This document shows positions 7,497-33,938 of a stretch of DNA of 64,000 bases, in pieces. The DNA is taken from contig MEZX01000001.1 in NCBI GenBank assembly GCA_001774395.1, forward strand, positions 27,643 to 91,642, written 5' to 3'. Position numbers and translations under genes: made by a program. The notes under the pieces were generated by a model. The model was not told the origin of the DNA, did not search any database, and worked only from the letters and a program-made list of their open reading frames with translations. The stretch comes from Candidatus Berkelbacteria bacterium RIFCSPLOWO2_01_FULL_50_28. Lineage in GTDB: Bacteria; Patescibacteriota; UBA1384; 2-12-FULL-50-11. Within the stretch, counting starts at the first letter, position 1, and the number at the start of each line of letters is the position of its first letter.

Positions 7497-7556
7497 TTAA
7501 TAAAATCACCTGTCAAATTTTGTAAAAATTGTGCCAGCAGGGGTTGCCTGCCGGCA

Positions 7557-11380: not shown

Positions 11381-11450
11381 ATGGGGTCAATTTTCAATTT
11401 ACAGTTTTCAATTTTCATTGAATACTCAATGTTCAATTTTCATACAGCCA
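11381..11450. repeat. Cluster of tandem degenerate heptamers (TCAATTT / CAATTTT)
   Basis: tcaattttcaatttacagttttcaattttcattgaatactcaatgttcaattttca lies directly upstream of the tRNA-Arg(UCU) 5' end and upstream of ORF 11555. The same heptamer cluster recurs at 61921-61970. Confidence 0.6.
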
Positions 11451-15049: not shown

Positions 15050-15056
15050 ATTATAC

Positions 15057-15093
15057 GTCGAAGAGCCTCTCGACTCACTACGTTCGCTCGAGG
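15057..15093 (-). repeat. Dispersed ~35-nt repeat, copy 3 (reverse orientation), imperfect palindrome
   Basis: Reverse complement reads CCTCGAGCGAACGTAGTGAGTCGAGAGGCTCTTCGAC. It sits at the low-GC/high-GC transition just upstream of the GIY-YIG start. Confidence 0.45.
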
Positions 15094-15299
15094 TTTCTCG
15101 ACTGGCAAGTCATGCAACCTCAAAAACCTCTCTGGCAGAGAGAGTTAGTTTACTTCGAATGAGCGTAGCGAATCGAGAAGTGGGCTTGGCGGGAGCGTAT
15201 TCGCACTCTGTTAGCAGGTTTGTCCGAAGACGACCGGCGTTTCGTGGACGCAACTCCCTTTGACAGCAACCCAGATTCTTCGAAGAATGGAGGAGTAGT

Positions 15300-16126
15300 A
15301 TGAGCAAGGCGAACCATTCCGATTTAACCGCATTCTATCAACACATCTCCGAAATGGGCAGACTGGAGGTTGCCAGGAGGCGAGTCCAGGGAGAAACTAT
15401 CGGTCAGCCGCCGCTGGGGTTTCGAAAGGTCCAGGTGAATGGCAAAACCACCAACGCTCCAGATCCAGAGACCTTCCCTTTGTTGGTGCTGGCCCTCCAG
15501 ATGCGCAAAGAAGGCAGTACGCTCCGTGAGATCTGTTCGGTCATGTCCAAAAAGGGCTTGCAGTCGAAGCGTGGCAATCCGATTCAGCCAAACGGGATGC
15601 ACAAGATCCTCAAAACTTTCATCCGTTTGATTGGAGAAGCTTTTGTGGATACAACTTCTTTTGACAGCATCAGCAGCCAAGCTGAACTTAGCAAAGCAGC
15701 ATGACCAACGAGATGCAAGATTTCAAACGAGCATACTTCGCCCAAACGGGCCGAATGGCTCGGGAAGCAATGGCGGCCAAAGCCCGTAGCGGCATCTACC
15801 CGCTCAAGCTCCCGATTGGTTACAAGCGCGTTTTCGCCGAAGGCGAGGAACGAATCGAGCCCGATCCACAGACAGCCCCGATCATCAAACTCGCCTTTGA
15901 GCTAATCGCTCGCAAACGATCCTCGTTGTCCAAGGTGCTGGCAACTGTCAGAGCCAAGGGACTGAAGGGCCATTCAGGTCAGCCCATCAGCTTAAGCGCC
16001 CTGCATCGGCTCCTGACAAACTCGTTCTACTTTGGAGAGTACAAGTACAACGGGAGTGTCGTGCAAGGGAACTACCGGCCTCTGGTCAACCGAGGTGTTT
16101 GGAATCTTGTCGGCCGCTGCTCTTAG
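15300..16126 (+). pseudogene. Decayed large serine recombinase (two consecutive recombinase-domain fragments, no catalytic resolvase domain)
   Basis: ORFs 15300-15704 and 15701-16126 each carry recombinase-domain-like sequence (GQPPLGF..., LPIGYKRV...YFGEY...G.WNLV). This is similar to the central domain of the intact recombinase at 26728-28314. The N-terminal Ser-catalytic domain and the zinc ribbon are absent. Confidence 0.55.
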
Positions 16127-16227
16127 CGAGAGACGAAGACGGCCCGGATAGCTTCTAGGGTCCATCCCCAGGAATCACAAGGCCGGAAGGTGCGAGAGTC
16201 GTTGGTCGCAAGAATCCGGGTCAGGTT

Positions 16228-17022
16228 CTAGACCCCACCGTCTATCAACAGTGTCTTCCCCATGGTGCCCTTTGGGATTATTCTAATGCGACATCCCAAC
16301 TCTGCTGCGACCATGCGAAGATCTTCAGCTGGTCGACCAATCAACTTCTGCGAAATGCGTTCCCACAGTTCTCGCACATCGTCCGGCGATATTGCCCAAA
16401 TGCGCTGCTGAAGCCCGGCAAACTCAGCGCGAGTTTCGTCGTCACCAAGGATATGCAGATCCCAGAACCAAAGAAGATACGTTGGCAAAGGCCCGAATTT
16501 CTGCTTGCCCCGCTGATGGGACTCGGGGTTCTGTTCCGCGTATTCGATCGCATGCCGGAATCTAGCCATGGCAGCGGGACGGACTGGTGCGTGAAGGCCA
16601 AATTCATCCAACTTCTTGTGCACCTCCAAGTCCAAGACTATTGAGGAGAGACTGTGCCAGAATTCTTTTATTGAGACGGGATCACCAGTCATTCCCTGAA
16701 CATAGTCTACTACGCCAGCGCCATCTGCCGCTTGAAGGTGGTGGATTAGCTCTTCTCCGAGAGCAGCTTGGAACTCTTCGTCAGGCAATTCAGGCTTGAT
16801 CCAAATGGCGATGTACGCGTCAACGTTTGGCTCAGCCAATGCGCTGTGGATCGGATCAACCTCCCTCTGAAGCTCCTGACTTGCGTTGGCATATGGAGCA
16901 ATGCGTAATGTCTTCTTGGGGAATGTCGCCATTACCTCGGAGATTACGGGCAACAGCACATCATTAACTCGGTGCCCTAGAAATTCCATATGACTAAGCA
17001 ACAATGCGCAAGGAGCCGCCAT
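16228..17022 (-). CDS. Hypothetical protein (island cargo, downstream partner of 17041-17787)
   Basis: 264-aa ORF 18 nt downstream of the preceding gene on the same strand. No recognisable motif. Confidence 0.45.
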   Translation of the reverse strand: MAAPCALLLSHMEFLGHRVNDVLLPVISEVMATFPKKTLRIAPYANASQELQREVDPIHSALAEPNVDAYIAIWIKPELPDEEFQAALGEELIHHLQAADGAGVVDYVQGMTGDPVSIKEFWHSLSSIVLDLEVHKKLDEFGLHAPVRPAAMARFRHAIEYAEQNPESHQRGKQKFGPLPTYLLWFWDLHILGDDETRAEFAGLQQRIWAISPDDVRELWERISQKLIGRPAEDLRMVAAELGCRIRIIPKGTMGKTLLIDGGV

Positions 17023-17040
17023 ATCTGCAAAAGGCTCTCA

Positions 17041-17787
17041 TCATGAGTACTGCGTCATTTCATAAGTTAGCGAACCGTATCGGGACAGGTTCTCTTGAAT
17101 TTGTCCAATTAGATGTTCAAGGCCGGGCATATCGGGTTTTACGACACGTTCCCATGTTTCCGTTCCCGGTTGTACTGTGGAGACATGGTTGTCATTCTTA
17201 AACAAGAAGCCACGAGCAAGAACACAAATCAGTTCGGGTCCATAGGTGTAATAGTCATTATTGTACAGTGAGGCCGAACGGCCGATGAACTCAATGATGG
17301 ACTCCCAGGACGGAGCGTCAAATGCGATCACGTAGCAGTTTGCTCGTGTCGGAGGAATCGGAACTCGCTCATCTCCGTGCCCCGCGCGATAGAAACCATG
17401 ATGTGGGGTTTTCTGCAGGTCCTTCGTTCGAGCCACCTTCGCCAAAGCCAATGCCAATCCGCCATCCGGTCCAAGGGAGAGTATGGATTTGCTCTCGATC
17501 AAGCTCGCCGCCTCCACTGGCACCACAGACTCCCCGCCAACCTGGAGACGACCAATTTGGTTGTCAACTAGAACAATGTCAGCCTCGTCCGAAGAGGCAC
17601 CCCTGCTGTCAACTACCTCCCCTTGTTCAACGCCCAGCCGCTGGGGGACATGTTTCTGAAGAAACTCTTTGATAAGCTCTTCTCGCGCCCGCCCTTTTGA
17701 AAGAGGTGCTGTTAGGATGCCAGCCGCTTTCGCTTGACTCAGCATGGCTTGTTCCAGGTGAACATAGTATTCACGCTGACTTGTCAT
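17041..17787 (-). CDS. Hypothetical protein with PD-(D/E)xK-like nuclease signature
   Basis: GEVVDSRGASSDEADIVLVDN ... EAASLIESKS gives a D...D...ExK arrangement typical of restriction-endonuclease-fold proteins. Start set at MTSQREYY; the upstream extension is Cys-rich and may not be translated. Confidence 0.4.
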   Translation of the reverse strand: MTSQREYYVHLEQAMLSQAKAAGILTAPLSKGRAREELIKEFLQKHVPQRLGVEQGEVVDSRGASSDEADIVLVDNQIGRLQVGGESVVPVEAASLIESKSILSLGPDGGLALALAKVARTKDLQKTPHHGFYRAGHGDERVPIPPTRANCYVIAFDAPSWESIIEFIGRSASLYNNDYYTYGPELICVLARGFLFKNDNHVSTVQPGTETWERVVKPDMPGLEHLIGQIQENLSRYGSLTYEMTQYS

Positions 17788-17958
17788 TTCAAACCTCAAA
17801 CCCACGGAAACGCAGTCTGCTTTGCATTGGGGCCCATTATACCAATCAAACCTGAAGAGACAACTGTTGCATATTCCAACGAATTCGAACGCCTGTTCCA
17901 ACTGAAGTCGAACGCGCATTCCAACTGAAATCGAACGCTTTGAGCACCGTCGTTGGGA

Positions 17959-19297
17959 TCATCGGTCTTCAGGCCTTCGTTGTCTGGTCGAGCTTACCGG
18001 TTGGGTCCTTGTCGAGCCCTTGCTTTTGCGCAGGGATTCGCCTTGGATCTCGAGCCGGTAGGCGTAGTGGACGAGTCGGTCGAGTGTGGCGTCGGCCAGG
18101 GTCGGATCTCCGATGGCCTCGTGCCAGTGCTCAAGCGGGAGTTGCGCGCAGATCATGGTGGACCTGCGGTCGTACCGGTCGTCGAGGATCTCGAGCAGAT
18201 CGCGCCGGTGGACGTCCGAGAGGGGCGCGACGAGCCAGTCGTCGAGGATGAGCAGATCGATCCTGGCGAGGGAGGCGAGCCGGTTGCGGTACGTGCCGTC
18301 GCCCCGACCAATCTCCAGATCGTGCAGGAGCCTGGGAGCTCTGAAGTAGCGGGTGTCCGGAATGGATCGGAATGGGTGTCCGCTTTGAATTGGAATCACT
18401 GTCCGCTTTGCGTCGGAACGCGCAGCCCGCAACCCAGTCTCAACCTGATGACTTCTCTGATCTTGCGCACGGACAGCTTCTCCTGTCCATCCCGACCACC
18501 TCGTTTCAATTGTGAGAGGCCAAGGATCGCCGATGCGGAGTAGGGCATCGGGCGCCGGGCGAGGATCCCGGAGCATGCCGATCGCTCATTCCGGGGCAGA
18601 ACCGAGAAACGATCGACATGGCCCGGAACATGCGATCGCTTTGGGCCGCTGAATGCAAGCGTTCGTGAATAATAGGAGTGCAATGCCTTTTCTGTCTTCC
18701 TCTCCAGCACTCTTGCCGGAGAAAGGACTGCGCTCAAAACGAGGCAAAAATGTGTTACCTATGTAGAAATCCATGACAACAGCTTGACGCCATGCTCCTT
18801 CAAGCATAGAATGGGTGTGTCGGCGCCGGTTGAAAAGTGCACCGCTGTGCTGGCCCAATAGTGCACCACGCGCGCACGCAGTGTACGCCGGTTTCCCATC
18901 CGGATGAGATTGCGCGAGCAATCTGGGAATCGGGGGCGAGCGAAGCGATGCCCCCTTCCGTGCCTCAGGCCCTGGTTTTGGGGTTGTCTCTCGCCTTGGC
19001 CAGACTGTACGCGAGCCGGTAGCTCTGCCCGTTCATCTCGAGGATGTGCACGTGGTGCGTGAGCCGGTCGAGCATCGCGTGCACGAGGGCTTCGGAGGCG
19101 AGCACCGAGATCCACTCCTCGAAGGGCAGGTTCGTCGTAAGGACGATCGAGCCCCGCTCGTAGCGGTCGGAGACGACGTCGAAGAGGAGTTCGGCCCCGC
19201 TTGCCGGAAGCGGCACGAACCCGAGCTCGTCGAGGACCAGGAGGTCGACCTTCCGCAGAAGGGCGCGCGTGCGGCCATGGGTGGTAGATGAAAGCAC
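17959..19297 (-). mobile_element. IS21-family insertion sequence remnants (two IstB C-terminal fragments flanking an IstA N-terminal fragment)
   Basis: ORF 17959-18576 (RIDLLILDDWLV ... DRLVHYAYRLEIQGESLR) and ORF 18965-19297 (VDLLVLDELGFVP ... DRLTHHVHILEMNGQSYR) are both IstB helper-ATPase C-terminal halves. ORF 18396-18737 carries an IstA-like N-terminal HTH (KIREVIRLRLGCGL). All are truncated. GC is very high. Confidence 0.6.
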
Positions 19298-19300
19298 GCT

Positions 19301-19756
19301 ATGCGTGCCGAGCAGCCAAAAAGTCGTTGGCTGCTGGTCGTGCGTAGCACATTCAAGTCGGCTAAGCGCTCAGTTGCGCAGGTCGCGTTCATCATCATTC
19401 TGATCCCGCTCTCACAGTCATTGGGCTGCAGCAGTGGGCATCAGAAAAAAGCACTTGCCAATAGAACCTACTTCTTAGAATCTGCACTTCCAAACACACC
19501 TACAGCCAACGGTAAGGCTCGGTATTTTCTATCGACCTTGGAGGCCAAAGGACTGCACCGAGTAGACTCAAAACAAAAGGCCAGCACGGTCGTGCACTTT
19601 GGTTATCTTGGTGGAGTGTGGCTCTCACCGCCCGATTCACCGTTCATTGCTGAGTGGAAGGGCCTGCTAGGAAAAACGCCCCAAGACACGGAAGAACAGT
19701 GCAGGTCACTTGCCTCCTATCTTGAGACCTCACGCACAGAGTCAGCCACGAACTGA
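19301..19756 (+). CDS. Hypothetical lipoprotein-like protein
   Basis: Possible lipobox LSQSLGCSSG. 151-aa ORF. Weak. Confidence 0.25.
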   Translation: MRAEQPKSRWLLVVRSTFKSAKRSVAQVAFIIILIPLSQSLGCSSGHQKKALANRTYFLESALPNTPTANGKARYFLSTLEAKGLHRVDSKQKASTVVHFGYLGGVWLSPPDSPFIAEWKGLLGKTPQDTEEQCRSLASYLETSRTESATN

Positions 19757-19935
19757 GGCAACACGTACAGCGACGGCCGGACACTATCTACCGGCCGTCC
19801 TTTTTTTGACAGCCCTTTCCCCAACCCTTATTGCCCTAGCAACAAAAAACCGTCGCGTTGCTTCCGACATCCGGAAAGGTAGGCCGTTCATAACTGCAGA
19901 GCCCTCCGCCCTGAATCAAGGCAAGGAGTCTGAGT

Positions 19936-20202
19936 TTGAAGAGGTTAAGATTTAGCGAGGAGCACGTGGTTCGGGTCCTGCACGTGGCTCATTCGGGCGA
20001 GGCGGTCCGCGAGGTCTGCCCCGCGCATGGAGTGAGCGAGGGCACTCTTTACGTCTCGAAGCGCAAATACTCCGGCATGGAGACGCAGGACGTGAAGCGG
20101 CTGCGCGAGCTTGAAGCCGCGAACGCCGCACCCAAGCGGATCGTGGCGGACCGGGCTCTGGTCATCGACGCGACGGGCAAGCTGATCCAAGAATCCGGGT
20201 AG
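19936..20202 (+). pseudogene. IS3-family transposase OrfA (HTH) fragment
   Basis: MKRLRFSEEHVVRVLHVAHSGEAVREVCPAHGVSEGTLYVSKRKYSGMETQDVKRLRELEAANAAPKRIVADRAL matches IS3/IS911 OrfA. No OrfB follows. Confidence 0.6.
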
Positions 20203-20481
20203 GTGCGCCCCAAAGACGCCAGGGAGCGCGGATAGCCGGGCCAGAGAAACCAGGCGTCTCGGTGATGCTTGCCGGTGACACCGACCATGGTGTCCCGGAC
20301 GAACACGGAAAGCTGCTCGGTAATGCCCTTATACAGCCTATTGAAGCCCGCTTCACCCAATCCGTCGTCGGTCCCAAGCGCATCTCGCAGATCTGACTGA
20401 AGGTCATGACGAATCCTTGCAATGCCCCTAAGAGCCTCGAACTCCCAAAGCAAGGGATCGTCGACAAGCGCACTCTCAGAA

Positions 20482-21279
20482 TCAGTATAGTTTCTCATCG
20501 GCCAAACACACATTATACACGCCAAGTCGGCGTTCATAGAAATGAATCATAGTGTCGATGCTTGTCGTAATGTTGTCCACCAGAGACAGTGCCTGTTTCA
20601 TGATGGGTCCGTGAGTGTCACCGTCGAGTTGAATATGTGCCCTTAGAAACGCACAATAGCGATCAAATCGCGGATCGTTAATCTTCAGGATCGCCTTCTC
20701 AAGATTGTCGAAGGCTGTTGTTAGGGTAAGTTCCCTTAGCGCTACTGTCGAAAGTGCCCTCTGATAGGTTCCCGCACAACTCTCACTAAAAACCATGTAA
20801 TCGATTGCCTTCGGATGAAAGCCCTCGCGTTTCATCAATATTTGGAGATTTCCGGCCGCGACACTAGCAACTAGTGCCTCGATCGGGCCAGTGTCAATAC
20901 CAGCGTCCTGTGCTGCCTCCAACATGGCCACATAATGGGGCCCGCACTCAGTCCGCTTTGTAGGTATGTTGTTTGTGGACAGTTCTTCGTCCGAAAGAGA
21001 TAACAGCAAGTGGAGGAAGGTCCCATCCTCTTGAACCGCGAAAGGATGCTCTGGCAACGCAGATAGATAACCCCGAAGACACCCTAAGAGATTACCGTAG
21101 AAGCATACGGTAAACAGAAGGCTCGCACGTACCATGTTGTCGATTGAGCGATCCGGGTGCACCAAGTTGACTGCCTCGTGATCGTAAATGCGCCGCGTAA
21201 CCGCTTCCAAACGCGGGTACTTGGCATCAGCTTGGAAGCTGCCTGGGAAGTCCAAGAAGGGCGACTGTATGGGTGTCAT
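20482..21279 (-). CDS. Hypothetical protein translationally coupled to the ABC ATPase gene (possible all-alpha / heme-oxygenase-like fold)
   Basis: 265-aa ORF. Its start overlaps the upstream ATPase stop by 4 nt (ATGA). No motif could be assigned with confidence. Confidence 0.5.
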   Translation of the reverse strand: MTPIQSPFLDFPGSFQADAKYPRLEAVTRRIYDHEAVNLVHPDRSIDNMVRASLLFTVCFYGNLLGCLRGYLSALPEHPFAVQEDGTFLHLLLSLSDEELSTNNIPTKRTECGPHYVAMLEAAQDAGIDTGPIEALVASVAAGNLQILMKREGFHPKAIDYMVFSESCAGTYQRALSTVALRELTLTTAFDNLEKAILKINDPRFDRYCAFLRAHIQLDGDTHGPIMKQALSLVDNITTSIDTMIHFYERRLGVYNVCLADEKLY

Positions 21280-22019: not shown

Positions 22020-22679
22020 CTAAGTCTCGGAGTAATCCCGGCTAACATGCTTTTGAAGAACGTTGGCCACAATATAGACGGGCACGGTTGCCAAAAGGAA
22101 AAATAGCGCCAACGCGGTGTAGATTTCCACGGGTTTGTAGATTTGAGCGTTGATCCGCTGGGCCGCTCGGAAGACTTCGTCAACTGAAATGAAGCTCGTA
22201 AATAGGCTGGCGTGAAGCATATTCATCTGGACGATCAGAATTCCCGGCAAGGCGTGGCGGGCGATCAAGGGGAGCGTGATCCTCCAAGAGATCGTCGAGC
22301 GTGGCAGACCACAGACGAGGGCGGCCAACCTATACTGGTTCGGGCATTCTACGTAACACTGCCGCCAGATGTCTGCCACCCAAAAGACATTCAACGTCGC
22401 CAAAGCAACGATAGAAGTGACCCTTGGGTCCACGACGATACCGAGCATATACTGTGCGGGGTAATGAAGCCAAAACAGCCAGACAACGATCGGGATACCG
22501 GCAAGACCAATGGCAAGGCAACGGACGGGGACGCCAACGCTTAATCTAAACCGCCCAGCAGCAACACCGAGAGGCGTCCCCAACAGCAGACCAATACCCC
22601 AGATGCAAGTGCACAGCAACATCGTCGTTCGCAAGCCGCCGAGAAATTCGGACGAGTGCTCTGTGAGGATCTTTAGCAT
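22020..22679 (-). CDS. ABC transporter permease (polar amino-acid family)
   Basis: Multi-TM protein with a conserved EAA-like loop region (ARHALPGILIVQMNMLHASL). Position between the SBP and ATPase genes. Confidence 0.75.
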   Translation of the reverse strand: MLKILTEHSSEFLGGLRTTMLLCTCIWGIGLLLGTPLGVAAGRFRLSVGVPVRCLAIGLAGIPIVVWLFWLHYPAQYMLGIVVDPRVTSIVALATLNVFWVADIWRQCYVECPNQYRLAALVCGLPRSTISWRITLPLIARHALPGILIVQMNMLHASLFTSFISVDEVFRAAQRINAQIYKPVEIYTALALFFLLATVPVYIVANVLQKHVSRDYSET

Positions 22680-22694
22680 AGTATGAATCCTCTG

Positions 22695-23564
22695 CTACTG
22701 TGATGCAAATGGAGTGGCAACTCGATAGAAAAGAAGGCTATCGCCTTCATATTTCTTGATTATCTTGTCAAGTGCACCGCTATATTGAAGCTCCTGCAAC
22801 GAGTTGTCAATCATAGATTTGAACTGAGGCTCGTTCTTGGGCATGATAAACACGTCCGCAAAGATGCGGAGTGGCTTGTCGACCGCAAGATTCTTCACTG
22901 ATCCCGGATTGCTTGAAAGGAATCGCATCCCCTGGTAGGGTTCAGCAAAGAAGACATCCGCTTTCTTTCCGACGATGTCCAGAAAGAGCTGAGATTCGGA
23001 GGTATGGTCAGGATAGGAAACGATTTTGGCGTTCGGAAACTGGGTTTGAGCGATCAGCATCGGTGTTGAACCATCAATGGCCGCGATTCGGATGTCAGGG
23101 TCGTTCAAAGAGGCCCAGTCGTTTGTCGGAGCGATTCGAGATTCACCTGGTCGAACCCAGATGCCGATTCCGCTGTAGTAAGCGGGCACCGATAGGGTTG
23201 CGAGTTTGCCGCGGGCGGCGTTCGCCCAAACGCCCACCCCGATCATGTCGTAGCGTCCGGTTTCAAGACCCTCCAGAAGGCTTGCCCAACTGACTTCCTC
23301 GTTGAACTCAACCTTGAGCTTGAGGTTCTTCGCCATCTCCCGCAGAGAATCGGGAAAGATTCCCGAAACTGCCTTGGTCTTGGGGTCGACTATGCCCGCA
23401 GGGGGATAATTGACGAAGGCTGCACGTATGACCCCGGAGTCGATAACGCGTTGGTAGGCGGAGGTTCCTCCGACAGCCGGAGACTTGCTTGGTTGGCAAC
23501 CCAAAACCGCCAATACCATCAATCCAACGGCGACCCCGATCCGAGTTCTGCTTGACTTTCTCAT
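22695..23564 (-). CDS. ABC transporter substrate-binding lipoprotein (SBP family 3, amino-acid binding)
   Basis: Lipoprotein signal (LAVLGCQPS). Family-3 SBP-like sequence. First gene of the operon. Confidence 0.75.
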   Translation of the reverse strand: MRKSSRTRIGVAVGLMVLAVLGCQPSKSPAVGGTSAYQRVIDSGVIRAAFVNYPPAGIVDPKTKAVSGIFPDSLREMAKNLKLKVEFNEEVSWASLLEGLETGRYDMIGVGVWANAARGKLATLSVPAYYSGIGIWVRPGESRIAPTNDWASLNDPDIRIAAIDGSTPMLIAQTQFPNAKIVSYPDHTSESQLFLDIVGKKADVFFAEPYQGMRFLSSNPGSVKNLAVDKPLRIFADVFIMPKNEPQFKSMIDNSLQELQYSGALDKIIKKYEGDSLLFYRVATPFASQ

Positions 23565-24015
23565 GGACTGCAGTGTAGAGGAAGGAGCATGAGATGAGAG
23601 ACACTCTCACGTTTGAGGAACGTTAGATCGGTTCATTCTTGAAGTGTCGTGGACCCTGCATATCTCACTGCGTCAACTGGGTCGAACTACTGTCAGACTT
23701 TACCAGGGAATCACGATGAGCTTGTTCATGGGATCGCGCCTGGTCACTGCACGGAGCCCTCGCCGTCCAACGGTGAGGGCTCCCTGTGGGTCGAAGCCCG
23801 ACGACGAAGCCTAGTGAGACTCGCTTAGTTACTCATCACCACCTCCATGACCTGAAGTTTGGGATAGAAGTCGAGGAGCGATCACAACTCTCACGTTTTC
23901 CGAACGCTAGGACGACTTATCTTGCGGATGGACGTTGGAATGGAGGCACCAACAGGCCAAACCAAAAAGGACCCTCACCTGGACAGGTGAGGGTCTTGGA
24001 TGGGACGCAGCCCAG

Positions 24016-24474
24016 CTATGATCGGTCAGAGGCGAGTAGGGGTCTGTACCCAATCTTTACCTCTTCCTTCTCGACGCTGAACGAGATACCCAGGCGTTCC
24101 GCATTGTCAATGCAGAACTGACCCAGCGCAGACTCGTTCTGTCGCCGATTCGCAGCTGGAGGCGGGAAGAGTTCGAGGAGCTCCCGCTTGGACCCCGGAT
24201 ACCGGCCATCCTCTCGGAATGTGCCGCCCAGTTCATAGCGAACAAGGCAGCCCACAGCCTGATGGACGGTCGGAGCGACGCAACCGAAATCAGTTCCGGT
24301 GAACGCCGCGACCCAGTTGCTTGCGCTCTTGGATCTGCCGATTACAGGCAATGATTGAATCTGTTGTAGAAGTACGTTCATGATTCCTCCTGTCCCCTGA
24401 GCCAAAACCGACCCAAAAGCACAGCGCGCATCGTAGCAAAGTGGAAGGTTGCTGTCAAGGGGTTTTGAGGCCAT
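24016..24474 (-). CDS. Hypothetical protein
   Basis: 152-aa ORF in the island. No recognisable domain. Low coding confidence. Confidence 0.25.
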   Translation of the reverse strand: MASKPLDSNLPLCYDARCAFGSVLAQGTGGIMNVLLQQIQSLPVIGRSKSASNWVAAFTGTDFGCVAPTVHQAVGCLVRYELGGTFREDGRYPGSKRELLELFPPPAANRRQNESALGQFCIDNAERLGISFSVEKEEVKIGYRPLLASDRS

Positions 24475-24730
24475 TTCCGGGCGGCTGTTAGGAAGCCAGT
24501 TAGAGGCTATAGCGCTGTCTGCAGTCCTTGAGAATCTGTCTGGAGTCTAGCCTGGCAGGCACGACGACACTTCAGCGGCTTCGCCGACGATGGTCGCGGA
24601 GTGGTGTTTCAATCCCATTTCCTTGATGAAGACCACTTTTCGCTTTCCAAACCCTATGTGTCAGGAGAGCTTCCAGCAGAGTTTCGCCAGGCTGTCCAAG
24701 AGGCCTATGATTGGTGGATGAAACTGTTCG

Positions 24731-25516
24731 GTGGTGGGGGCTCTTGTTGCATTGAAGGCTGATCGCGTCACGGAGGTCTCAGCACGGCCGTTCTACTTGT
24801 TCTTGGTGCTTGCCTTGGGTGGTCTGTTTGTTTCCGTATCACTAGCCGCCAACTATCTTCTTGGATCGGACTATATTCCGTGCCTTGCTGCTGCCGATTG
24901 TGACGGAGTTGTAAGTAGTCGGTATCCACTAGGCGATCCCAATGCGGACCTTAAGCTGGTAGTATTCTCAGACCTTATCTGCCCAGCCTGCAAGTCGGTT
25001 GTACCTCGACTTATTGCTGAGGTTCGGCGAAATCAACCCTCGTATCTGGTCTACCGGCATTTCCCGCTAAAATCCCATTCTGATGCCCGCTTTGCGGCGG
25101 CCGTTGCGGAAGTCGCGGCCGAGGTCAGTTGCCATTGCCTGACACACGGCGACCGTCCTCTCCCACTCGGGATTCTCGCGACCATTCGTCAGGTTCATGG
25201 GCAGACACACGTTATATTTTGTAAGGGCCGGATACCGCTTGAGTGCGGTCTCAAACGACTGCACGACTTGACTGCGTTCGGACGCTCGAAATCGTGCCCG
25301 ACCGGAGGCATCTGGGGAGAGGAAGTACTTGGCTTGCCAGCCTTCGAGTTCGCCCGATGGCCGCTCAAATGTCGCCTCGACTCCCCCCTCAGGCGGACGA
25401 AATCTGCGAAAGGCACCCGATTCAAGAAGTCGGTCGATACGAGCGACTTGGCAGCAAAACTCCTCAAAGCCCGCCGAAGCGCTGCCGTCAACGTGCCGGA
25501 TGTAACGGAAGTCTAG
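24731..25516 (+). CDS. DsbA/thioredoxin-like thiol:disulfide oxidoreductase, possibly disrupted in its C-terminal half
   Basis: N-terminal TM followed by VVFSDLICPACKSVVP (CxxC active site). The distal half is unusual and overlaps an antisense 153-aa ORF. Confidence 0.35.
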   Translation: MVGALVALKADRVTEVSARPFYLFLVLALGGLFVSVSLAANYLLGSDYIPCLAAADCDGVVSSRYPLGDPNADLKLVVFSDLICPACKSVVPRLIAEVRRNQPSYLVYRHFPLKSHSDARFAAAVAEVAAEVSCHCLTHGDRPLPLGILATIRQVHGQTHVIFCKGRIPLECGLKRLHDLTAFGRSKSCPTGGIWGEEVLGLPAFEFARWPLKCRLDSPLRRTKSAKGTRFKKSVDTSDLAAKLLKARRSAAVNVPDVTEV

Positions 25517-26727
25517 GGACTGGGGCATTGGATTCGTGGACGATTTGAAGCTGTACCGCTCACCATTCGTCTACATATAATACCGAAGGGCGGGCAATGC
25601 TAGGGTCGGAAGCCAAAATTGGCAGGAAGAACGTCACCATCGACTATGCTGAAGTGCGGCTAGGACATCCTTCGACCGTTGAAATGTGGGGATCGGTCGC
25701 CAAACAACGAGTAGTGTGTGCAACTCCATTTGCGACCTTTTCTGAGAGCATTCACGCTGGGATCAGAGATGTCCAATCCCGATCCCAGCGGAAACGCTGC
25801 CACAAAATGCCACAACCTAATCTCCGCGATCATGGCGCACATCGCGCGCTAAAGCTTTCGCGGGACCTCTCGTCTCGCTGCTGATGCCGGCGTCTCCAAG
25901 TCCACGATCAGCCACCTCGTGCGGGGGCTGAACAATCCCCTGTATATCACGGCTTGCCAGGTCGTCAAGACCCTGGAGTTCCAACTTGGCCGTTCGCTCC
26001 ATCTCGACGAGGTCATTTCGCTCGACGGATCGTATCCGACATCAGCAAGGCCATCGACGGGCTGGTCAGGACCGGGCTCATTATTGTTCGGGATTTGTCT
26101 GGTCAGCCGCTGACTAGCGCTCGTGATCGGCGGCAATCGCATTCTCGTCTCAGCTTCAGCCTCAATCCCGATCTGGCGTCCACTCGGTTCCAAGAGCAGT
26201 TCGCTCATGCGCGTTTTCAGATTTCAAAAAGAAGGAACAACAAAAGAAAGTTATACAAAAGAAAACAACAACAGCTGTTTGAGCGACTCGACGGGATCAG
26301 CCCTCATGAGCAAGGAAGGAAGCTCGGGGAATGACAATCTGGTTAGGAGGTCGGATCAATCTCCACCTTCCGACCGTAGCTGATCGCGTACCAGACACAG
26401 TTGTAGAGCAGAGTCGGGTCGTTCTCAAAGTCATCCAGCCGGAGTCGAAGAGCCGGACCAGTACTACCTTGCACCAGGTCCACGAATTCTGGAAGAGTCC
26501 TTTCAAGTGCTTCAGCAGCTCCGATTGGCATCTTCTTCATTGCCTGAATCTAACAAAGATCACGCCTGGCGGCAAGGCAGCTTAGATGTTGCGCCTGCCG
26601 GTTCCGAACGCTCAGGAGGTCGAGGAGTTCAGGGTCTTGTGCGAACGGCGGTTTTCTGTAACGCTCTCTAGCGCAGAGGCCTTGGATTGGGCGACCCGCC
26701 TACTCCACCTCTTCTACCTAACAAGCC

Positions 26728-28314
26728 ATGAGATATATTCTTTACGCCAGGAAGAGTAGCGAGTCTGAGGAACGCCAGGTCCAGAGCATCGACGATCAAC
26801 TCCGCGTGGTTCGAGACTTCGCCAAGAGGTCCGGTCTTGACGTGGTCGCCGAATTGACCGAGGCGCATTCCGCCAAAGCGCCCGGGACACGACCGGTCTT
26901 TGCCGAACTCCTCGCCCGGATCGAGCGAGGCGAAGCCGAAGGGATCGTCTGCTGGAGTATCAACCGGCTGGCCCGCAATCCCGTCGATTCTGGTCAGTTG
27001 AGCTGGCTCTTGCAGCGAGGCGTTCTCAAGTCCATCCGAACCATCGACCGGGAGTATCTGCCCGAGGACAACGTCCTGCTGATGGCGGTCGAGTCGGGCG
27101 TAGCCAACCAGTACATCCTCGATCTGCGCAAGGCCGTCATCCGCGGCATGGAAGGCAAGGCCGCCCGGGGTTGGATTCCCAATCGACCTCCCCAAGGGTA
27201 CGGCGTCAATCCGCTGACCAAGGAGATCGATCCCATCGAACCGCAGTTCCAATTGCTTCGACAGGCCTGGGATTTGCTTCTAACCGGCGCCTACACGGTG
27301 CCCCAGATACGATCAAAGTTACAATCCTGGGGCTACACCTATGGGAAGCTCGGTGCACCAGCTAAGCCCCTCTTTGCCGAATCTCACCTCTATCGAATCT
27401 TCGACAACCGCTTCTACTGCGGCTCTTTCACCTTTCGCGGCCAGACCTACCAGGGCCGGCACCGGGTGATGGTCAGCCCAGAGGAGTTTGATCGAGCCCA
27501 GGGGATCTTACACAAAGACAACCGGATTCAGCCCCAGAGGCATGAATTCCCGTTCACCGGACTCATCCGTTGTGGGCGCTGCGGTTGCCTGGTCACCGCC
27601 GAGCGCAAGATCAAACACTACAAGACGACCGCCCGAACGGCGGCCTACGAGTACTACCACTGCACACACCGCAAGGGTGACTGTAAAGAGGTCAGCGTCA
27701 CCGGCCCATATATCGACTCGACCATCGCCTGCGAACTTGAGAGCGTCCTGATCGATCCGGAATTCGGCCAATGGCTCCTCAAGGCCTTGGAACGGTTTTG
27801 GGACGAGCAGCCTCCGGTTGACCCCAAATTGATCAAACAGCACCAAGAACACGTTCGTGCGACCGAACAGAAACTCGAACGATTGATCCAGCTTAGGCTG
27901 GCCGGGGAACTGGACGCCCAGGAGTTCAGCCGCATCAAGACCCAAACTCAGGGAGAACTGGCCGATGGCCGAAGACAGCTTGAGAGTTTGTCAAAACGAG
28001 CCTCAACCGGACGACAGGCTCTCATCAATGCCGTTCGGTTCGGCCTCGATGCCCCGCGGCATTTTGCCGAAAACGACACTCATCTGAAAAGGTATGTCGC
28101 GACGATGTTTGGCATTCGCTACGTTCTCACTCTGGGAAAGCTGGAAATCACACCGCATCCGCTGCTGACGCAATTGGCCGCGTTAGAACCTCCAAAATCG
28201 CCACGCAATATGGTTGGAGCCGGGGCTTTGCGCCCCGACGCTCCCATTGAGTGGAGCTGGCGGGAGTTGAACCCGCGTCCGAAAACAAACGAACCAAATC
28301 ATCTACAAGCTTAG
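26728..28314 (+). CDS. Large serine recombinase (integrase/resolvase)
   Basis: N-terminal resolvase catalytic domain (YARKSSESEERQVQSIDDQ ... RLARN), recombinase domain (GWIPNRPPQGYG), zinc-ribbon Cys cluster (CGRCGC...YYHC...C), C-terminal coiled-coil. 528 aa. Confidence 0.85.
   Translation: MRYILYARKSSESEERQVQSIDDQLRVVRDFAKRSGLDVVAELTEAHSAKAPGTRPVFAELLARIERGEAEGIVCWSINRLARNPVDSGQLSWLLQRGVLKSIRTIDREYLPEDNVLLMAVESGVANQYILDLRKAVIRGMEGKAARGWIPNRPPQGYGVNPLTKEIDPIEPQFQLLRQAWDLLLTGAYTVPQIRSKLQSWGYTYGKLGAPAKPLFAESHLYRIFDNRFYCGSFTFRGQTYQGRHRVMVSPEEFDRAQGILHKDNRIQPQRHEFPFTGLIRCGRCGCLVTAERKIKHYKTTARTAAYEYYHCTHRKGDCKEVSVTGPYIDSTIACELESVLIDPEFGQWLLKALERFWDEQPPVDPKLIKQHQEHVRATEQKLERLIQLRLAGELDAQEFSRIKTQTQGELADGRRQLESLSKRASTGRQALINAVRFGLDAPRHFAENDTHLKRYVATMFGIRYVLTLGKLEITPHPLLTQLAALEPPKSPRNMVGAGALRPDAPIEWSWRELNPRPKTNEPNHLQA
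28252..28280 (-). other. tRNA 3'-end fragment (T-arm + acceptor 3' strand): putative att remnant overlapping the recombinase 3' end
   Basis: Reverse complement is GGACGCGGGTTCAACTCCCGCCAGCTCCA, i.e. T-stem GCGGG, T-loop UUCAACU, T-stem CCCGC, acceptor strand CAGCUCC, discriminator A. No matching 5' half or D/anticodon arms were found. Confidence 0.6.
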
Positions 28315-28683
28315 TTTGCTTTGTTGTCTTGAAATTGTGGCTCTAAACAAACGAAACACCGCAACTTCCAGCATCTATATCTTAATGTTCAAGCGATGCC
28401 TCTTGAACAGGCACCCGATAATATGACGCCTCAATCCTCCATCGGAGTCAAGGATTGAAACGGCCGAACGTTTTTTAGGCGACGGCGTAAGCTGGACTAA
28501 AACTGCCAAACGCGTTTGCTACAGCAGTTCGAGTTTTCGCTAATACGTTTGCACGTAATTTTTTTGTCCTCTAAGGCAGAGACTTCCGCTTGCAAATTTG
28601 GTTGTTAAAGTTCCCGTCGAATCCTTTACAGCCCCGTGCGACAACCTTACCAAACTTGGAGCCAAAAGTCAACAAGATAGGGA

Positions 28684-33864: not shown

Positions 33865-33938
33865 GGTCCCATCGTCTAGTGGCCCAGGACGCTGGATTTT
33901 CATTCCAGAAATCGCGGGTTCGACTCCCGCTGGGACCG
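33865..33938 (+). tRNA. tRNA-Glu (anticodon UUC)
   Basis: Acceptor GGUCCCA/UGGGACC, D-arm GUCU..GGAC, anticodon stem CUGGA/UCCAG, loop UUUUCAU, T-arm GCGGG-UUCGACU-CCCGC. Confidence 0.8.

What the first reader, a model, noticed from the sequence alone, without database searches (positions are those of the whole stretch)
15050..28320. ~13-kb GC-rich decayed integrative island bounded by a serine-recombinase remnant and an intact large serine recombinase with adjacent tRNA-fragment att
From ~15.05 kb the composition shifts to higher GC, and the gene content switches from housekeeping to the mobile-element cargo summarised above. The recombinase stop is followed by a sharp return to backbone composition and a MacB-type ABC operon. 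The cargo also includes a DsbA-like CxxC gene and several hypothetical genes. Two serine recombinases at opposite ends plus multiple IS scars suggest serial integration and decay at one hotspot.
Basis: partly seen in the sequence, partly recalled or inferred. Interest (0 to 1): 0.6.

Follow-up and report, generated by a model that had tools for sequence, protein, structure and literature searches.

The report
Serine-integrase island inserted at the tmRNA gene
A 13,071-bp foreign DNA island in a Berkelbacteria (CPR) genome was inserted at the very end of the tmRNA gene by a large serine integrase whose own gene is cut in two by the insertion; this design was previously described only in Dehalococcoides, and related genomes suggest it is common at tRNA genes of CPR bacteria.

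Summary
The island is real: 55.4% GC against 49.3% in the flanks. Its ends can be placed to the base, at window 15184-28254 (13,071 bp).

The "tRNA fragment" is the 3' end of a complete tmRNA gene (ssrA, 28249-28635, minus strand), which is the attachment target. The intact large serine recombinase (LSR) crosses over at a GG dinucleotide. On the other strand this is C71-C72 of the tmRNA acceptor stem, so the tmRNA stays whole.

The attP site lies inside the LSR reading frame, at codon W509. Insertion therefore splits the gene. Codons 1-509 remain next to ssrA and read on into antisense tmRNA. The last 39 codons sit 13 kb away at the left end (15184-15303). Two small genes that copy the LSR's DNA-binding domain follow them directly.

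The "recombinase remnant" is therefore the other half of the same recombination module. It is not a second, dead recombinase, and the window shows no sign of serial integration.

The cargo and backbone are decayed: two IS21 IstB relics, an IS3 fragment, an Avs2 fragment, and truncated Rep and HTH genes.

The closest precedent is the Dehalococcoides ssrA islands with DsiB. In 80 related genomic loci the LSR gene nearly always overlaps a tRNA 3' end and carries an antisense terminator-like hairpin.

The parts
15184..28254 (.). The integrative element itself (13,071 bp, counting one copy of the GG crossover dinucleotide).
   Evidence: The junctions were defined by comparing attL and attR with independent insertions of the same element family (L109/L116 at tRNA-Glu, L112, L020) and with empty tmRNA sites (L105, L116). 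The GC step agrees.
15127..15143 (-). Native intrinsic terminator of ssrA. It now sits on the host side of attL, 13 kb from the gene it served.
   Evidence: Terminator scan: a 7-bp stem followed by TTTTTG. It lies about 40 nt beyond the reconstructed tmRNA 3' end.
15159..15208 (.). attL. It consists of the host B arm (to 15181), the crossover GG (15182-15183) and the element P' arm GCTTGGCGGGAGCGTATTCGC (from 15184).
   Evidence: The same P' arm is joined to three different left flanks, in the window, L109 and L112. This is the only P' motif in the window.
15184..15303 (+). Detached 3' end of the LSR ORF: 39 codons, AWRERIRTLLAGLSEDDRRFVDATPFDSNPDSSKNGGVV, plus the stop.
   Evidence: Joined to 26728-28254 it gives a 548-aa protein. 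That protein aligns over 545 residues without gaps, at 69% identity, to the uninterrupted homolog P0002, which is also 548 aa.
15260..15288 (+). Promoter-like site (TTGACA, 17-nt spacer, AAGAAT) inside the tail-coding DNA, just upstream of ORF1.
   Evidence: Consensus scan only: 10 of 12 matches. Function is not shown.
15300..15704 (+). ORF1 (134 aa), a small protein resembling the alpha-E helix plus the recombinase DNA-binding domain (RD) of the LSR. Its start overlaps the tail stop codon (ATGA).
   Evidence: It is 61% identical to the ORF that follows the LSR in L018. It belongs to a family of 19 proteins with 62-90% identity. The family profile matches LSR residues 138-227 (hhalign probability 95.9%, E = 5.6e-9).
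15701..16126 (+). ORF2 (141 aa), an RD-only paralog of ORF1. It has no catalytic domain and no zinc ribbon.
   Evidence: Pfam Recombinase PF07508, E = 4.7e-11. It is 27% identical to LSR residues 141-250, E = 3e-8. Its N-terminal 61 residues are 82% identical to the ORF that follows ORF1 in L112.
16228..17919 (-). Cargo: a 264-aa protein of unknown function and a 292-aa DUF6602 protein (PD-(D/E)xK, NucC-like nuclease).
   Evidence: Pfam DUF6602, E = 1.8e-14. PADLOC PD_DExK E = 2.7e-18 and NucC E = 3.4e-13.
17959..19297 (-). Two IS21 IstB C-terminal relics (17959-18576 and 18965-19297). This is the highest-GC block of the island (61%).
   Evidence: Pfam IstB_IS21, E = 4.6e-32 and 6.1e-31. Both cover the same part of the profile (about 123-234 and 148-233), so they derive from two separate copies.
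19936..20202 (+). IS3-family OrfA (HTH_Tnp_1) fragment.
   Evidence: NCBIfam transpos_IS3, E = 2.3e-4, covering profile positions 7-67 of 369. The precomputed Pfam hit for this gene on L002 is HTH_Tnp_1.
20482..23564 (-). Cargo operon: a substrate-binding protein (SBP_bac_3), a permease, an ABC ATPase (polar amino acid or ectoine type) and a DUF3050/heme-oxygenase-like protein.
   Evidence: Pfam and NCBIfam hits.
24731..25528 (.). Decayed cargo: a truncated thioredoxin/DsbA-like CxxC ORF (24731-25516, +) overlapping an Avs2 N-terminal fragment (25067-25528, -).
   Evidence: Thioredoxin_4 E = 6e-4 and DSBA E = 3e-3, both below the Pfam cut-offs. PADLOC Avs2, E = 2.4e-25, covering only profile positions 3-114 of about 1500.
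25769..26756 (.). Relics of the conserved module that lies upstream of the LSR in relatives. They comprise an HTH-protein N-terminal fragment (25769-26047), a RepO-like fragment (26041-26280), a 65-aa ORF (26349-26540, -) and an intact 56-aa ORF (26589-26756) that overlaps the LSR start. The Mrr-type gene is missing.
   Evidence: tblastn of the neighbours of related LSRs (L017, L018, L020, L022, L023) against the window.
26728..28314 (+). Large serine recombinase as it reads in the integrated state (528 aa). Codons 1-509 (to 28254) are element DNA. The last 19 codons (SWRELNPRPKTNEPNHLQA) are antisense tmRNA gene.
   Evidence: Pfam Resolvase, Recombinase and Zn_ribbon_recom domains. All 56 columns that are invariant across the 30-sequence alignment, including S10, are also present here. 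Homology to relatives with an uninterrupted tail stops after WxWRE.
28219..28239 (-). GC-rich hairpin (8-bp stem, 5-nt loop) starting 12 nt downstream of the tmRNA 3' end, inside the LSR coding sequence. It is the counterpart of the family's antisense terminator, but here it is followed by only a weak T tract.
   Evidence: Hairpin search; family covariation analysis.
28230..28279 (.). attR. It consists of the element P arm (to 28252), the crossover GG (28253-28254) and the host B' arm AGCTGGCGGGAGTTGAACCCGCG, which is the tmRNA acceptor and T arm.
   Evidence: LSR sequence that is 91% identical in L025/L109 diverges from the window exactly after GAGTGG, where tRNA-Glu sequence begins there.
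28249..28635 (-). Complete tmRNA gene (ssrA), the integration target. The acceptor stem pairs GGGGCUG with CAGCUCC and includes G3-U70. The tag reading frame is ANVLAKTRTAVANAFGSFSPAYAVA*.
   Evidence: Rfam RF00023, 145.7 bits, covering model positions 1-374 of 374.

Best explanation
Window 15184-28254 is one integrative, probably mobilizable, element. It was inserted into the chromosome of a Candidatus Berkelbacteria bacterium by its own large serine recombinase (LSR).

Target and crossover:
- The target (attB) is the 3' end of the tmRNA gene.
- Strand exchange took place at a GG dinucleotide (15182-15183 and 28253-28254). On the tmRNA strand this is C71-C72, the last two bases of the acceptor stem.
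- The whole tmRNA body therefore stays host-encoded and intact. Only the discriminator base and the 3' trailer are replaced by element DNA.
- The native ssrA terminator was pushed 13 kb away.

Split gene:
- The element's attP lies inside the LSR coding sequence, and the GG is part of codon W509.
- In the free circular form the gene would encode 548 aa and be followed directly, through an ATGA overlap, by two small genes (ORF1 and ORF2) that copy only the LSR's DNA-binding recombinase domain.
- In the integrated form the gene is split. Codons 1-509 plus 19 antisense-tmRNA codons lie at attR. The true 39-codon tail plus ORF1 and ORF2 lie at attL.

Site recognition:
- The motif GGGAG (the T-stem) sits at positions 8-12 from the crossover in the P, P' and B' half-sites.
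- This fits recognition of the T arm by the recombinase domain.
- It also explains why a 91%-identical LSR in a related genome used tRNA-Glu, whose T arm is nearly the same.

State of the element:
- The recombination module is intact: LSR, the 56-aa ORF, the tail, ORF1, ORF2 and both att sites.
- The backbone and part of the cargo are decayed.

What is shown and what is inferred:
- Shown: the boundaries, the split ORF, the intact tmRNA, empty sites in relatives, and horizontal transfer.
- Inferred: the exact dinucleotide (from one informative mismatch), which domain reads which motif, any role of the tail swap or of ORF1/ORF2 in directionality, and whether the element can still excise.
For: 1. 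A full-length tmRNA gene overlaps the LSR stop codon.
2. The LSR homologs align through ...EW(A/S)WRE. Many of them, including the closest (P0002), then continue with a related tail, xIRTLL...F.DAT.FD. The window protein switches to antisense tmRNA at that point.
3. The missing tail is encoded at 15184-15303. The joined 548-aa protein aligns without gaps to P0002, which is also 548 aa. In P0002's contig L018 the tail stop overlaps an ORF that is 61% identical to window ORF1.
4. There are independent insertions of the same element type.
   - In MAG H43 an LSR gene 91% identical at the DNA level sits at tRNA-Glu, with its tail and ORF1 about 7 kb away.
   - L020 is a further insertion at a tmRNA gene.
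   - L112 carries the same P' arm on yet another left flank.
5. In H43 attL keeps the host C (GCGG, as in the window's empty tRNA-Glu site, which ends ...GGGACCGC). attR carries the element T (GTGG). The next base to the right differs between attP and attB. This leaves only GG as the shared crossover dinucleotide.
6. Putting the crossover further right, inside TGGCGGGAG, would give the empty-site tmRNA an acceptor strand CAAGCCC. That strand cannot pair with 5' GGGGCUG and lacks G3-U70 (direct reading).
7. Empty tmRNA sites exist in related species, each with a terminator directly after ssrA and no LSR: L105, and L116 from H43.
8. The LSR DNA is 91% identical between the two genomes, while host genes are 64-79% identical. 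This indicates horizontal transfer.
9. The GC step is significant.
10. Decay of the backbone is documented.
Against: - No excised circle and no empty site was found for this species. All 16 contigs recovered for this strain carry the island or break inside the LSR gene. The one metagenome scan for the P' arm returned only H43.
- The crossover dinucleotide rests on one informative mismatch in one related insertion.
- The dyad symmetry of the reconstructed attP (12 of 22 positions) reaches only the 95th percentile of background.
- Many relatives keep an uninterrupted tail while lying inside long contigs with mobile-element genes on both sides (L021, L023, L024). A simple model with attP inside the ORF does not predict this unless tandem arrays form.
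- No recombination directionality factor was identified.
Confidence: 0.85

Rival explanations
1. Two separate serine-recombinase elements integrated one after the other at a hotspot. The left one has decayed to a remnant (15300-16126) and the right one keeps its recombinase.
For: ORF2 hits Pfam Recombinase, and ORF1 and ORF2 lack catalytic domains. IS relics show that decay has occurred. A related genome (H43, L109) does carry two P' arms and an internal tRNA fragment, so accretion happens in this element family.
Against: - The order tail, then ORF1, then ORF2 is the exact continuation of the intact LSR gene as seen in an uninterrupted relative.
- ORF1 is a conserved 19-member family with invariant residues and similar lengths. 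ORF2 follows ORF1 in L112.
- The window holds only one P' motif and one attL/attR pair.
- A true remnant would run catalytic domain, RD, zinc ribbon, tail. It would not run tail, RD, RD.
Confidence: 0.06
2. Classical tDNA-island geometry, as proposed for the Dehalococcoides ssrA islands and as used by tyrosine integrases. Crossover occurs inside the T loop or T stem, the element supplies a new tmRNA 3' end, and the copy at attL (GTGGGCTTGGCGGGAG) is the displaced original end.
For: attL and attR share a 16-nt imperfect direct repeat (13 of 16 positions) that corresponds to the tmRNA 3' end. [quoted passage not shown]
Against: - The attL copy would give an acceptor strand CAAGCCC. It cannot pair with 5' GGGGCUG and lacks U70.
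- The attL copy encodes the family consensus WAWRE, and its P' arm sequence (GCTTGGCGGGAGCG…) is shared by three different insertion sites.
- At tRNA-Glu in H43 the bases right of GG in attR are the tRNA's own acceptor strand (TCCCAG), not element sequence.
Confidence: 0.07
3. The region is not a mobile element insertion. It is native DNA whose composition happens to differ, with a domesticated recombinase next to ssrA.
For: No excised or empty form was seen for this species. Another stretch of the window (5-8 kb) also reaches 54.6% GC.
Against: - Empty ssrA sites exist in related species.
- The same LSR, tail and ORF1 module occurs at a different locus (tRNA-Glu) in a relative, at higher identity than the host genes.
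- The region contains IS and defence-gene relics.
- The GC step coincides with the att junctions.
Confidence: 0.01

Closest known systems
Dehalococcoides ssrA-specific genomic islands (ssrA-GIs, including the vcr-GIs) with the serine recombinase DsiB (McMurdie et al. 2011, PMC3146451)
   Same: - Islands of about 10-20 kb sit directly downstream of the single-copy tmRNA gene.
- The integrase is a serine recombinase of about 540 aa placed at the ssrA-proximal edge.
- The integrase ORF always runs across the att site into ssrA or a neighbouring island.
- Those authors already suggested the gene may be complete only on the circular form.
[quoted passage not shown]
   Different: - The host is a different phylum (CPR/Berkelbacteria rather than Chloroflexota).
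- The integration module differs. There is no DsiA-type catalytic-domain-only partner and no RecF, ParB or Mom genes. Instead there are two RD-only ORFs, a 56-aa ORF and, in relatives, Mrr and RepO-like genes.
- The crossover is placed here at acceptor C71-C72, not in the T loop.
- The repeat is imperfect (13 of 16), not a 20-bp direct repeat.
- The window has a single element, not a tandem array.
- Sequence relatedness of this LSR to DsiB could not be tested. No Dehalococcoides record appeared among the best 80 genomic relatives.
[quoted passage not shown]
   Same: They use the 3' part of a t(m)RNA gene as attB and leave the gene functional. The integrase gene sits at the edge of the island next to the target.
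   Different: - The enzyme family is unrelated.
- There is no long identity block, and gene restoration by a carried tDNA copy is not needed because the crossover lies at the very end of the acceptor stem.
- The literature held here treats serine-integrase use of t(m)RNA genes as undocumented or rare. [quoted passage not shown] TIGER 2020 reports 14 of 297 and says "experimental proof will be required".
Phage-type large serine integrases (SPbeta SprA, A118, Bxb1, phiC31)
   Same: The domain order is the same: catalytic domain, recombinase domain, zinc ribbon with coiled coil. The closest solved structure is SPbeta SprA (9dxh), E = 3.9e-14. These enzymes use short att sites with a 2-bp crossover.
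   Different: - As far as I recall, attP lies outside the integrase ORF in those systems, and their usual targets are protein-coding genes.
- Their known directionality factors are unrelated small proteins.
- No member of this clade with 33% identity or more was found in IMG/VR viral contigs.
SCCmec CcrAB/CcrC cassette chromosome recombinases
   Same: They are large serine recombinases that move non-replicative, cargo-carrying islands into the 3' end of one conserved housekeeping gene. They include two-protein recombinase sets.
   Different: Similarity is only weak: NCBIfam CcrB E = 2.6e-8 and CcrC E = 2.4e-9, far below the cut-offs. The target is rlmH/orfX rather than a tRNA-like RNA. The partner CcrA is a full recombinase, whereas ORF1 and ORF2 here are RD-only.
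Elements whose attP lies inside their own integrase gene (Myxococcus phage Mx8 intP to intX; Sulfolobus SSV1 int). This comparison is from my own knowledge.
   Same: Integration changes or splits the integrase ORF, so the integrated and free forms encode different proteins.
   Different: Those are tyrosine recombinases. Here the enzyme is a serine recombinase and only the last 39 of 548 codons are exchanged.

Membership tests
Large serine recombinase (serine integrase) | An N-terminal resolvase catalytic domain with the nucleophilic serine and conserved arginines. | tested here: met
   Pfam Resolvase, E = 3.7e-16, residues 4-148. R8, S10 and R16 are invariant across the 30 aligned homologs, which include this protein.
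Large serine recombinase (serine integrase) | A recombinase domain (RD) followed by a zinc-ribbon domain carrying a Cys cluster. | tested here: met
   Pfam Recombinase, E = 2.2e-6, and Zn_ribbon_recom, E = 1.1e-6. C282, C285, C312 and C319 are invariant. The protein aligns to SPbeta SprA over residues 5-384.
Large serine recombinase (serine integrase) | Recombination between short attP and attB sites at a shared 2-bp core, producing hybrid attL and attR without a long duplication. | tested here: inconclusive
   The junction comparison leaves GG as the only shared dinucleotide, and the attL/attR hybrids are as expected. No biochemical test was possible, and the dyad symmetry is not significant.
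Integrative island in a tmRNA/tRNA gene | One end of the element abuts or overlaps the 3' part of an intact t(m)RNA gene. | tested here: met
   tmRNA gene at 28249-28635(-), full model match, with the junction at 28253-28254.
Integrative island in a tmRNA/tRNA gene | The other end carries a displaced copy of the t(m)RNA 3' fragment as a direct repeat. | tested here: inconclusive
   A 16-nt imperfect repeat (13 of 16) lies at 15180-15195. It is best read as the element's own P' arm, which resembles the target, and not as a displaced tmRNA end.
Integrative island in a tmRNA/tRNA gene | An unoccupied site exists in related genomes. | tested here: met
   L105 and L116 (H43) have ssrA followed by a terminator and no LSR. 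Conversely, the window's tRNA-Glu site is empty while the H43 site is occupied. No empty site was found within the same species.
Dehalococcoides-type ssrA-GI (DsiB family) | A serine recombinase gene at the ssrA-proximal edge whose 3' end overlaps the att site and ssrA. | tested here: met
   The LSR stop codon at 28314 lies 63 nt inside the tmRNA gene.
Dehalococcoides-type ssrA-GI (DsiB family) | The conserved six-gene integration module (DsiB, DsiA, RecF-like, ParB-like, Mom-like, 700-aa protein) with an embedded tRNA-like locus. | tested here: not met
   No such genes occur in the island or in relatives of its LSR. The neighbours are a 56-aa ORF, RepO-like and HTH relics, and Mrr in relatives.
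Dehalococcoides-type ssrA-GI (DsiB family) | Orthology of the integrase to DsiB. | not tested
   No DsiB sequence was available through the tools. No Dehalococcoides record was among the best 80 of 348 genomic relatives.
Prophage | Virion structural and packaging genes, or relatives of the element in viral collections. | tested here: not met
   No structural genes were found. The best IMG/VR relative of the LSR is 32% identical.
Integrative conjugative element | A type IV secretion or coupling protein and a relaxase on the element. | tested here: not met
   None is present in the window element. Some distant relatives sit next to TrwB-like and ArdC genes.

The most novel reading that the evidence does not exclude
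The split gene may work as a built-in state sensor. The 548-aa LSR with its own conserved tail would be made only from the free circle, together with the co-translated RD-only proteins ORF1 and ORF2. The integrated copy would make a 528-aa variant ending in antisense-tmRNA codons, while ORF1 and ORF2 would come under separate control at the far end of the island. The two isoforms, the RD-only proteins, or both, would then set the direction of recombination in place of a classical directionality factor.

More broadly, this LSR would belong to a large clade, mostly in CPR/Patescibacteria, with three unusual properties. It targets the CCA-proximal end of tRNA and tmRNA genes. It can switch between targets that share a T arm. 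It carries, antisense inside its own coding sequence, a replacement terminator for the targeted RNA gene.
Probability: 0.25. Interest if true: 0.8.

Novelty: new variant of a known kind. Interest (0 to 1): 0.6.

Why it matters
Serine integrases are the main tools for inserting large DNA payloads, yet their natural use of tRNA and tmRNA genes is almost undocumented. The literature held here has one descriptive report (Dehalococcoides, 2011). Surveys from 2015 and 2020 call such use unknown or unproven.

This locus gives a base-level example in a CPR bacterium. The crossover lies at the last two acceptor-stem bases, so the essential RNA is never broken. The integrase gene is rebuilt only on excision. 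The same enzyme lineage used tmRNA in one genome and tRNA-Glu in another.

The related loci suggest that this is the normal lifestyle of a large integrase clade in CPR bacteria, for which genetic tools are lacking. Sixty of 73 analysable loci overlap a tRNA 3' end. They also suggest that these elements bring their own antisense terminator. If confirmed, this would supply new att/integrase pairs aimed at universally conserved sites and a natural model for state-dependent integrase isoforms.

Tried and rejected
- **Direct repeat of the tmRNA 3' end.** A short-word BLAST inside the window found no repeat longer than 11-18 nt, and those hits are T arms of other tRNAs. The att sites had to be found through protein colinearity instead.
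- **Insertion inside the tmRNA.** An 11-nt internal repeat (28283-28293 and 28345-28355) raised the idea that the tmRNA carries an insertion relic. The Rfam alignment shows a normal P2 helix and no insertion, so this was rejected.
- **Empty site or excised circle in the same species.**
  - Sixteen contigs from ENA, JGI, NCBI and Logan are all 100% identical to the window. Each either contains the island or ends inside the LSR gene.
  - Several contigs break at 26.7-28.2 kb. I could not tell whether this reflects strain heterogeneity.
- **attP dyad symmetry as independent evidence.** The best centre is the predicted GG, but 12 of 22 matches is only the 95th percentile of random positions. I did not use it as support.
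- **Viral origin.** No close relatives exist in IMG/VR.
- **A second island at tRNA-His.** I checked whether the 5-8 kb GC rise next to tRNA-His (6014-6085) is another island of this type. There is no LSR there, only two ORFs without Pfam hits.
- **L029.** It looked like an integrated form ending right after the W codon. It is a TGG-to-TGA nonsense mutation in an otherwise continuous tail.
- **BLASTP of ORF1 against the LSR.** This gave nothing. The relationship appeared only with profiles and through ORF2.

Full report

Yes. A 1-kb GC profile rises from about 0.43-0.46 at 13-15 kb to 0.52-0.60 between 15 and 28 kb. It falls back to about 0.50 after 28 kb.

With the boundaries derived below, the island is 55.4% GC against 49.4% and 49.2% for the flanks. 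The 1-kb windows inside and outside differ at p = 6.5e-7. The GC-richest 13-kb stretch of the whole window starts at 15200.

- a complete large serine recombinase (LSR) at 26728-28314;
- a Recombinase-domain ORF at 15701-16126;
- two IstB (IS21) relics;
- an IS3 OrfA fragment;
- an ABC uptake operon with a DUF3050 gene;
- a weak, truncated thioredoxin/DsbA-like CxxC ORF.

PADLOC models add two items. One is a PD-(D/E)xK, NucC-like nuclease (the DUF6602 protein). The other is the first ~115 residues of an Avs2-type defence protein.

**2. The "tRNA fragment" is the tmRNA gene.**

Rfam finds a complete tmRNA gene on the minus strand at 28249-28635, scoring 145.7 bits over the full model. ARAGORN missed it.

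Its acceptor stem pairs 5' GGGGCUG with 3' CAGCUCC and includes the G3-U70 pair. The tag frame reads ANVLAKTRTAVANAFGSFSPAYAVA*.

The LSR reading frame runs 63 nt into this gene in antisense. That is why its last residues, WRELNPRP, look like a translated T arm.

**3. The LSR gene is split by the insertion.**

The 30 aligned homologs (40-70% identity) agree with the window protein up to ...LEPPK...EW(A/S)WRE. Many of them, including the closest (P0002), then continue with a related tail, xIRTLL..L...E..F.DAT.FD. The window protein switches to antisense tmRNA at that point.

The missing tail is encoded at the left edge of the island. Window 15184-15303 reads AWRERIRTLLAGLSEDDRRFVDATPFDSNPDSSKNGGVV*.

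Joining 26728-28254 to 15184-15303 gives a 548-aa protein. It aligns over 545 residues, without a gap and at 69% identity, to the uninterrupted homolog P0002, which is also 548 aa.

On P0002's contig L018 the stop codon overlaps (ATGA) a 114-aa ORF that is 61% identical to window ORF1 at 15300-15704. ORF1 overlaps the tail's stop codon in the same way.

The left end of the island is therefore the continuation of the right end. The element is a circle opened inside the LSR gene.

**4. Where the crossover is.**

Three attL junctions carry the same element arm on different left flanks:
- window: ...GAGAAGTGG|GCTTGGCGGGAGCGTATTCGC;
- H43, locus L109: ...CTTATTGCGG|GCTTGG...;
- L112: ...CACTTTCGTGG|GCTTGG....

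Two attR junctions carry nearly the same LSR sequence (91% identical DNA) on different right flanks:
- window: ...CCCATTGAGTGG|AGCTGGCGGGAGTTGAACCCGCG, which is tmRNA;
- H43: ...CCCATTGAGTGG|TCCCAGCGGGAGTCGAACCCGCG, which is tRNA-Glu(ttc).

In H43, attL keeps a C (GCGG). This matches the window's unoccupied tRNA-Glu, which ends ...GGGACCGC. H43's attR has the element's T (GTGG). The base to the right of GG differs between all the partners. The only dinucleotide shared by attP and attB is therefore GG, at window 15182-15183 and 28253-28254.

On the RNA strand this is C71-C72 of the acceptor stem. The discriminator base and everything 3' of it come from the element. The RNA body stays host-encoded.

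The alternative places the crossover further right, with the island supplying the tmRNA end. It fails because the attL copy would give an acceptor strand CAAGCCC. That strand cannot pair with GGGGCUG and lacks U70.

GGGAG occupies positions 8-12 from the core in the P, P' and B' half-sites, for both tmRNA and tRNA-Glu. This is where a recombinase domain would be expected to bind. That reading is an inference. The dyad symmetry of attP is not statistically significant on its own.

**5. Host side and empty sites.**

The host is Candidatus Berkelbacteria bacterium RIFCSPLOWO2_01_FULL_50_28, the name carried by protein P0121.

The 130 bp left of attL contain an intrinsic terminator on the tmRNA strand at 15127-15143. 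It lies about 40 nt beyond the reconstructed tmRNA end. This is the native ssrA terminator, now 13 kb from its gene.

Two related genomes have ssrA followed directly by a terminator and ordinary genes, with no LSR:
- L105, whose MacB permease is 83% identical to the window's;
- L116 from MAG H43.

H43 instead carries an element of about 7 kb at tRNA-Glu. It has the same LSR, tail and ORF1 module, but its LSR has lost the catalytic N-terminus.

The LSR DNA is 91% identical between the two genomes, while host genes are 64-79% identical. The module has therefore moved horizontally.

**6. The "recombinase remnant".**

ORF1 belongs to a family of 19 proteins of 111-134 aa, at 62-90% identity and with invariant residues. 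The family profile matches LSR residues 138-227, which cover the end of helix E and the first half of the recombinase domain (hhalign probability 95.9%, E = 5.6e-9).

ORF2 matches Pfam Recombinase and LSR residues 141-250. Its N-terminal 61 residues are 82% identical to the ORF that follows ORF1 in L112.

These are conserved proteins that contain only the DNA-binding domain. They are not debris.

What they do is unknown. I consider a role in site choice or directionality plausible but unproven. A promoter-like site lies within the tail-coding DNA upstream of ORF1.

**7. Decay.**

Relatives share a module upstream of the LSR: an HTH protein, an Mrr-type nuclease, a ~95-aa ORF, a RepO-like protein and a ~56-aa ORF.

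The window retains the following parts of it:
- the HTH N-terminus (25769-26047), fused to a RepO-like internal fragment (26041-26280);
- a 65-aa ORF;
- the intact 56-aa ORF.

The Mrr-type gene is gone.

The IS relics, the Avs2 fragment and the truncated thioredoxin-like ORF add to this picture, so "decayed" is a fair description. The recombination module and both att sites are nevertheless intact.

The window has only one P' arm. It therefore gives no evidence for serial integration. H43 has two P' arms and an internal tRNA fragment, so accretion does occur elsewhere in this family.

**8. The wider family (beyond the finding).**

A scan of one genome per species found 348 relatives of the LSR. 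The best 80 are mostly Patescibacteria/CPR MAGs.

- In 60 of the 73 loci that could be analysed, the LSR ORF overlaps the 3' end of a tRNA on the opposite strand. The targets are His 28, Trp 9, Asn 7, Gln 7 and others.
- Several of the remaining loci are tRNA fragments, intron-containing tRNAs or contig ends.
- In 59 of 65 junctions the codon at the tRNA boundary is TGG.
- A 10-bp hairpin begins about 8 nt downstream of the tRNA on the tRNA strand. It occurs in 57 of 65 loci.
- In 45 of those 65 it is followed by a T-rich tract, against 11 of 56 for other tRNAs in the same loci.
- The hairpin is supported by covariation: 71% of cells paired against 56% in shuffles (0 of 500), and 120 double-sided changes against 57 (0 of 500). 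Many pairs are G-U pairs that exist only on the tRNA strand.

I read this as a replacement terminator for the targeted RNA gene, encoded antisense within the integrase gene. In the window the hairpin is present (28219-28239) but its T tract is weak.

**9. Comparison with what is known.**

The nearest precedent is the Dehalococcoides ssrA islands (PMC3146451). They have a ~540-aa serine recombinase, DsiB, at the ssrA-proximal edge. Its ORF always runs across the att site. The authors speculated that the gene is complete only on the circle.

The present element shares that architecture. It does not share the rest of the integration module, the host phylum or the proposed crossover position. I could not test orthology to DsiB.

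General surveys state that serine integrases were not known to use tRNA genes (Islander 2015). A later survey found 14 of 297 cases and called for experimental proof (TIGER 2020).

My text searches found no description of this CPR clade. These were word searches of an open-access library and are not proof that no description exists.

**10. Verdict.**

The finding is a real, precisely delimitable, LSR-driven integrative island at ssrA.

It is a new variant of a known but barely documented kind. The island itself is of moderate interest. Interest is higher for the split-gene design, the tmRNA/tRNA-Glu target switch and the family-wide features.

**Unexplained.** Many relatives keep an uninterrupted tail while lying inside long contigs with mobile-element genes on both sides. 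Tandem accretion through attP x attR recombination would explain this, but I did not test it.

Noticed in passing
L025-L104 (80 genomic loci), positions about 4560-4600 of each: Relatives of this integrase, mostly in CPR/Patescibacteria MAGs, nearly always overlap the 3' end of a tRNA gene on the opposite strand. The targets are His, Trp, Asn, Gln, Ser, Ile, Asp, Lys, Glu and Met. A TGG codon sits exactly at the tRNA boundary in 59 of 65 junctions.
   Followed up: partly
L025-L104, the 48 nt downstream of each LSR-adjacent tRNA; window 28219-28239: A covarying hairpin of about 10 bp followed by a T tract lies on the tRNA strand inside the integrase coding sequence, about 8 nt after the tRNA end. 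It looks like a replacement intrinsic terminator for the targeted RNA gene. In the window the hairpin is present but the T tract is weak.
   Followed up: partly
L109 9889 and 11045, and about 11405-11440 (MAG H43, island at tRNA-Glu): The related island in H43 has two copies of the P' arm plus tail plus ORF1 start, and an internal tRNA 3' fragment. It therefore looks like a composite of two accreted elements. Its LSR has lost the catalytic N-terminus.
   Followed up: partly
L021 (1.9-Mb Fimbriimonadaceae contig), L023 and L024: These homologs have an uninterrupted tail. They lie inside long contigs with mobile-element genes on both sides (type I R-M, Mrr, ArdC, TrwB-like, OLD-like) and no tRNA nearby. 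A simple model with attP inside the ORF does not explain this. Tandem arrays are one possibility.
   Followed up: no
window 27147-27195 (compared with L010): One assembly of the same strain (L010) has 10 nt in place of these 49 nt. That is a 39-nt in-frame deletion in the helix E/linker region of the LSR, giving a 515-aa product. Several other contigs of the strain end inside the LSR gene (at 26.7-28.2 kb).
   Followed up: no
window 25067-25528 (-): This ORF is an N-terminal fragment (about 115 aa) of an Avs2-type anti-phage defence protein (PADLOC E = 2.4e-25). It overlaps the truncated thioredoxin-like ORF on the other strand.
   Followed up: no
window 33865-33939 (+): The window's tRNA-Glu(ttc) ends ...GGGACCGC. 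The occupied orthologous site in H43 now ends ...GGGACCAC, because the element supplied the discriminator base. The G at this position breaks the GTGG next to the crossover. This may be why the element sits at tmRNA in this genome.
   Followed up: partly
window 30932-31537 (+): A single ORF fuses an XRE-type HTH domain to an HSP20/alpha-crystallin domain. The fusion is conserved in all the related Berkelbacteria loci examined.
   Followed up: no
window 5000-8800: This is a second stretch of raised GC (about 54.6% over 5-8 kb), next to tRNA-His (6014-6085). It holds two large minus-strand ORFs (6222-7496 and 7557-8771) without Pfam hits. There is no recombinase there.
   Followed up: partly
L066 4633-4874 (-): In one relative the targeted tRNA carries a group I intron (Rfam RF00028, 97.5 bits). 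This is why ARAGORN did not call the tRNA there.
   Followed up: no
window 28249-28635: ARAGORN did not report this tmRNA gene, although Rfam scores it at 145.7 bits over the full model.
   Followed up: yes
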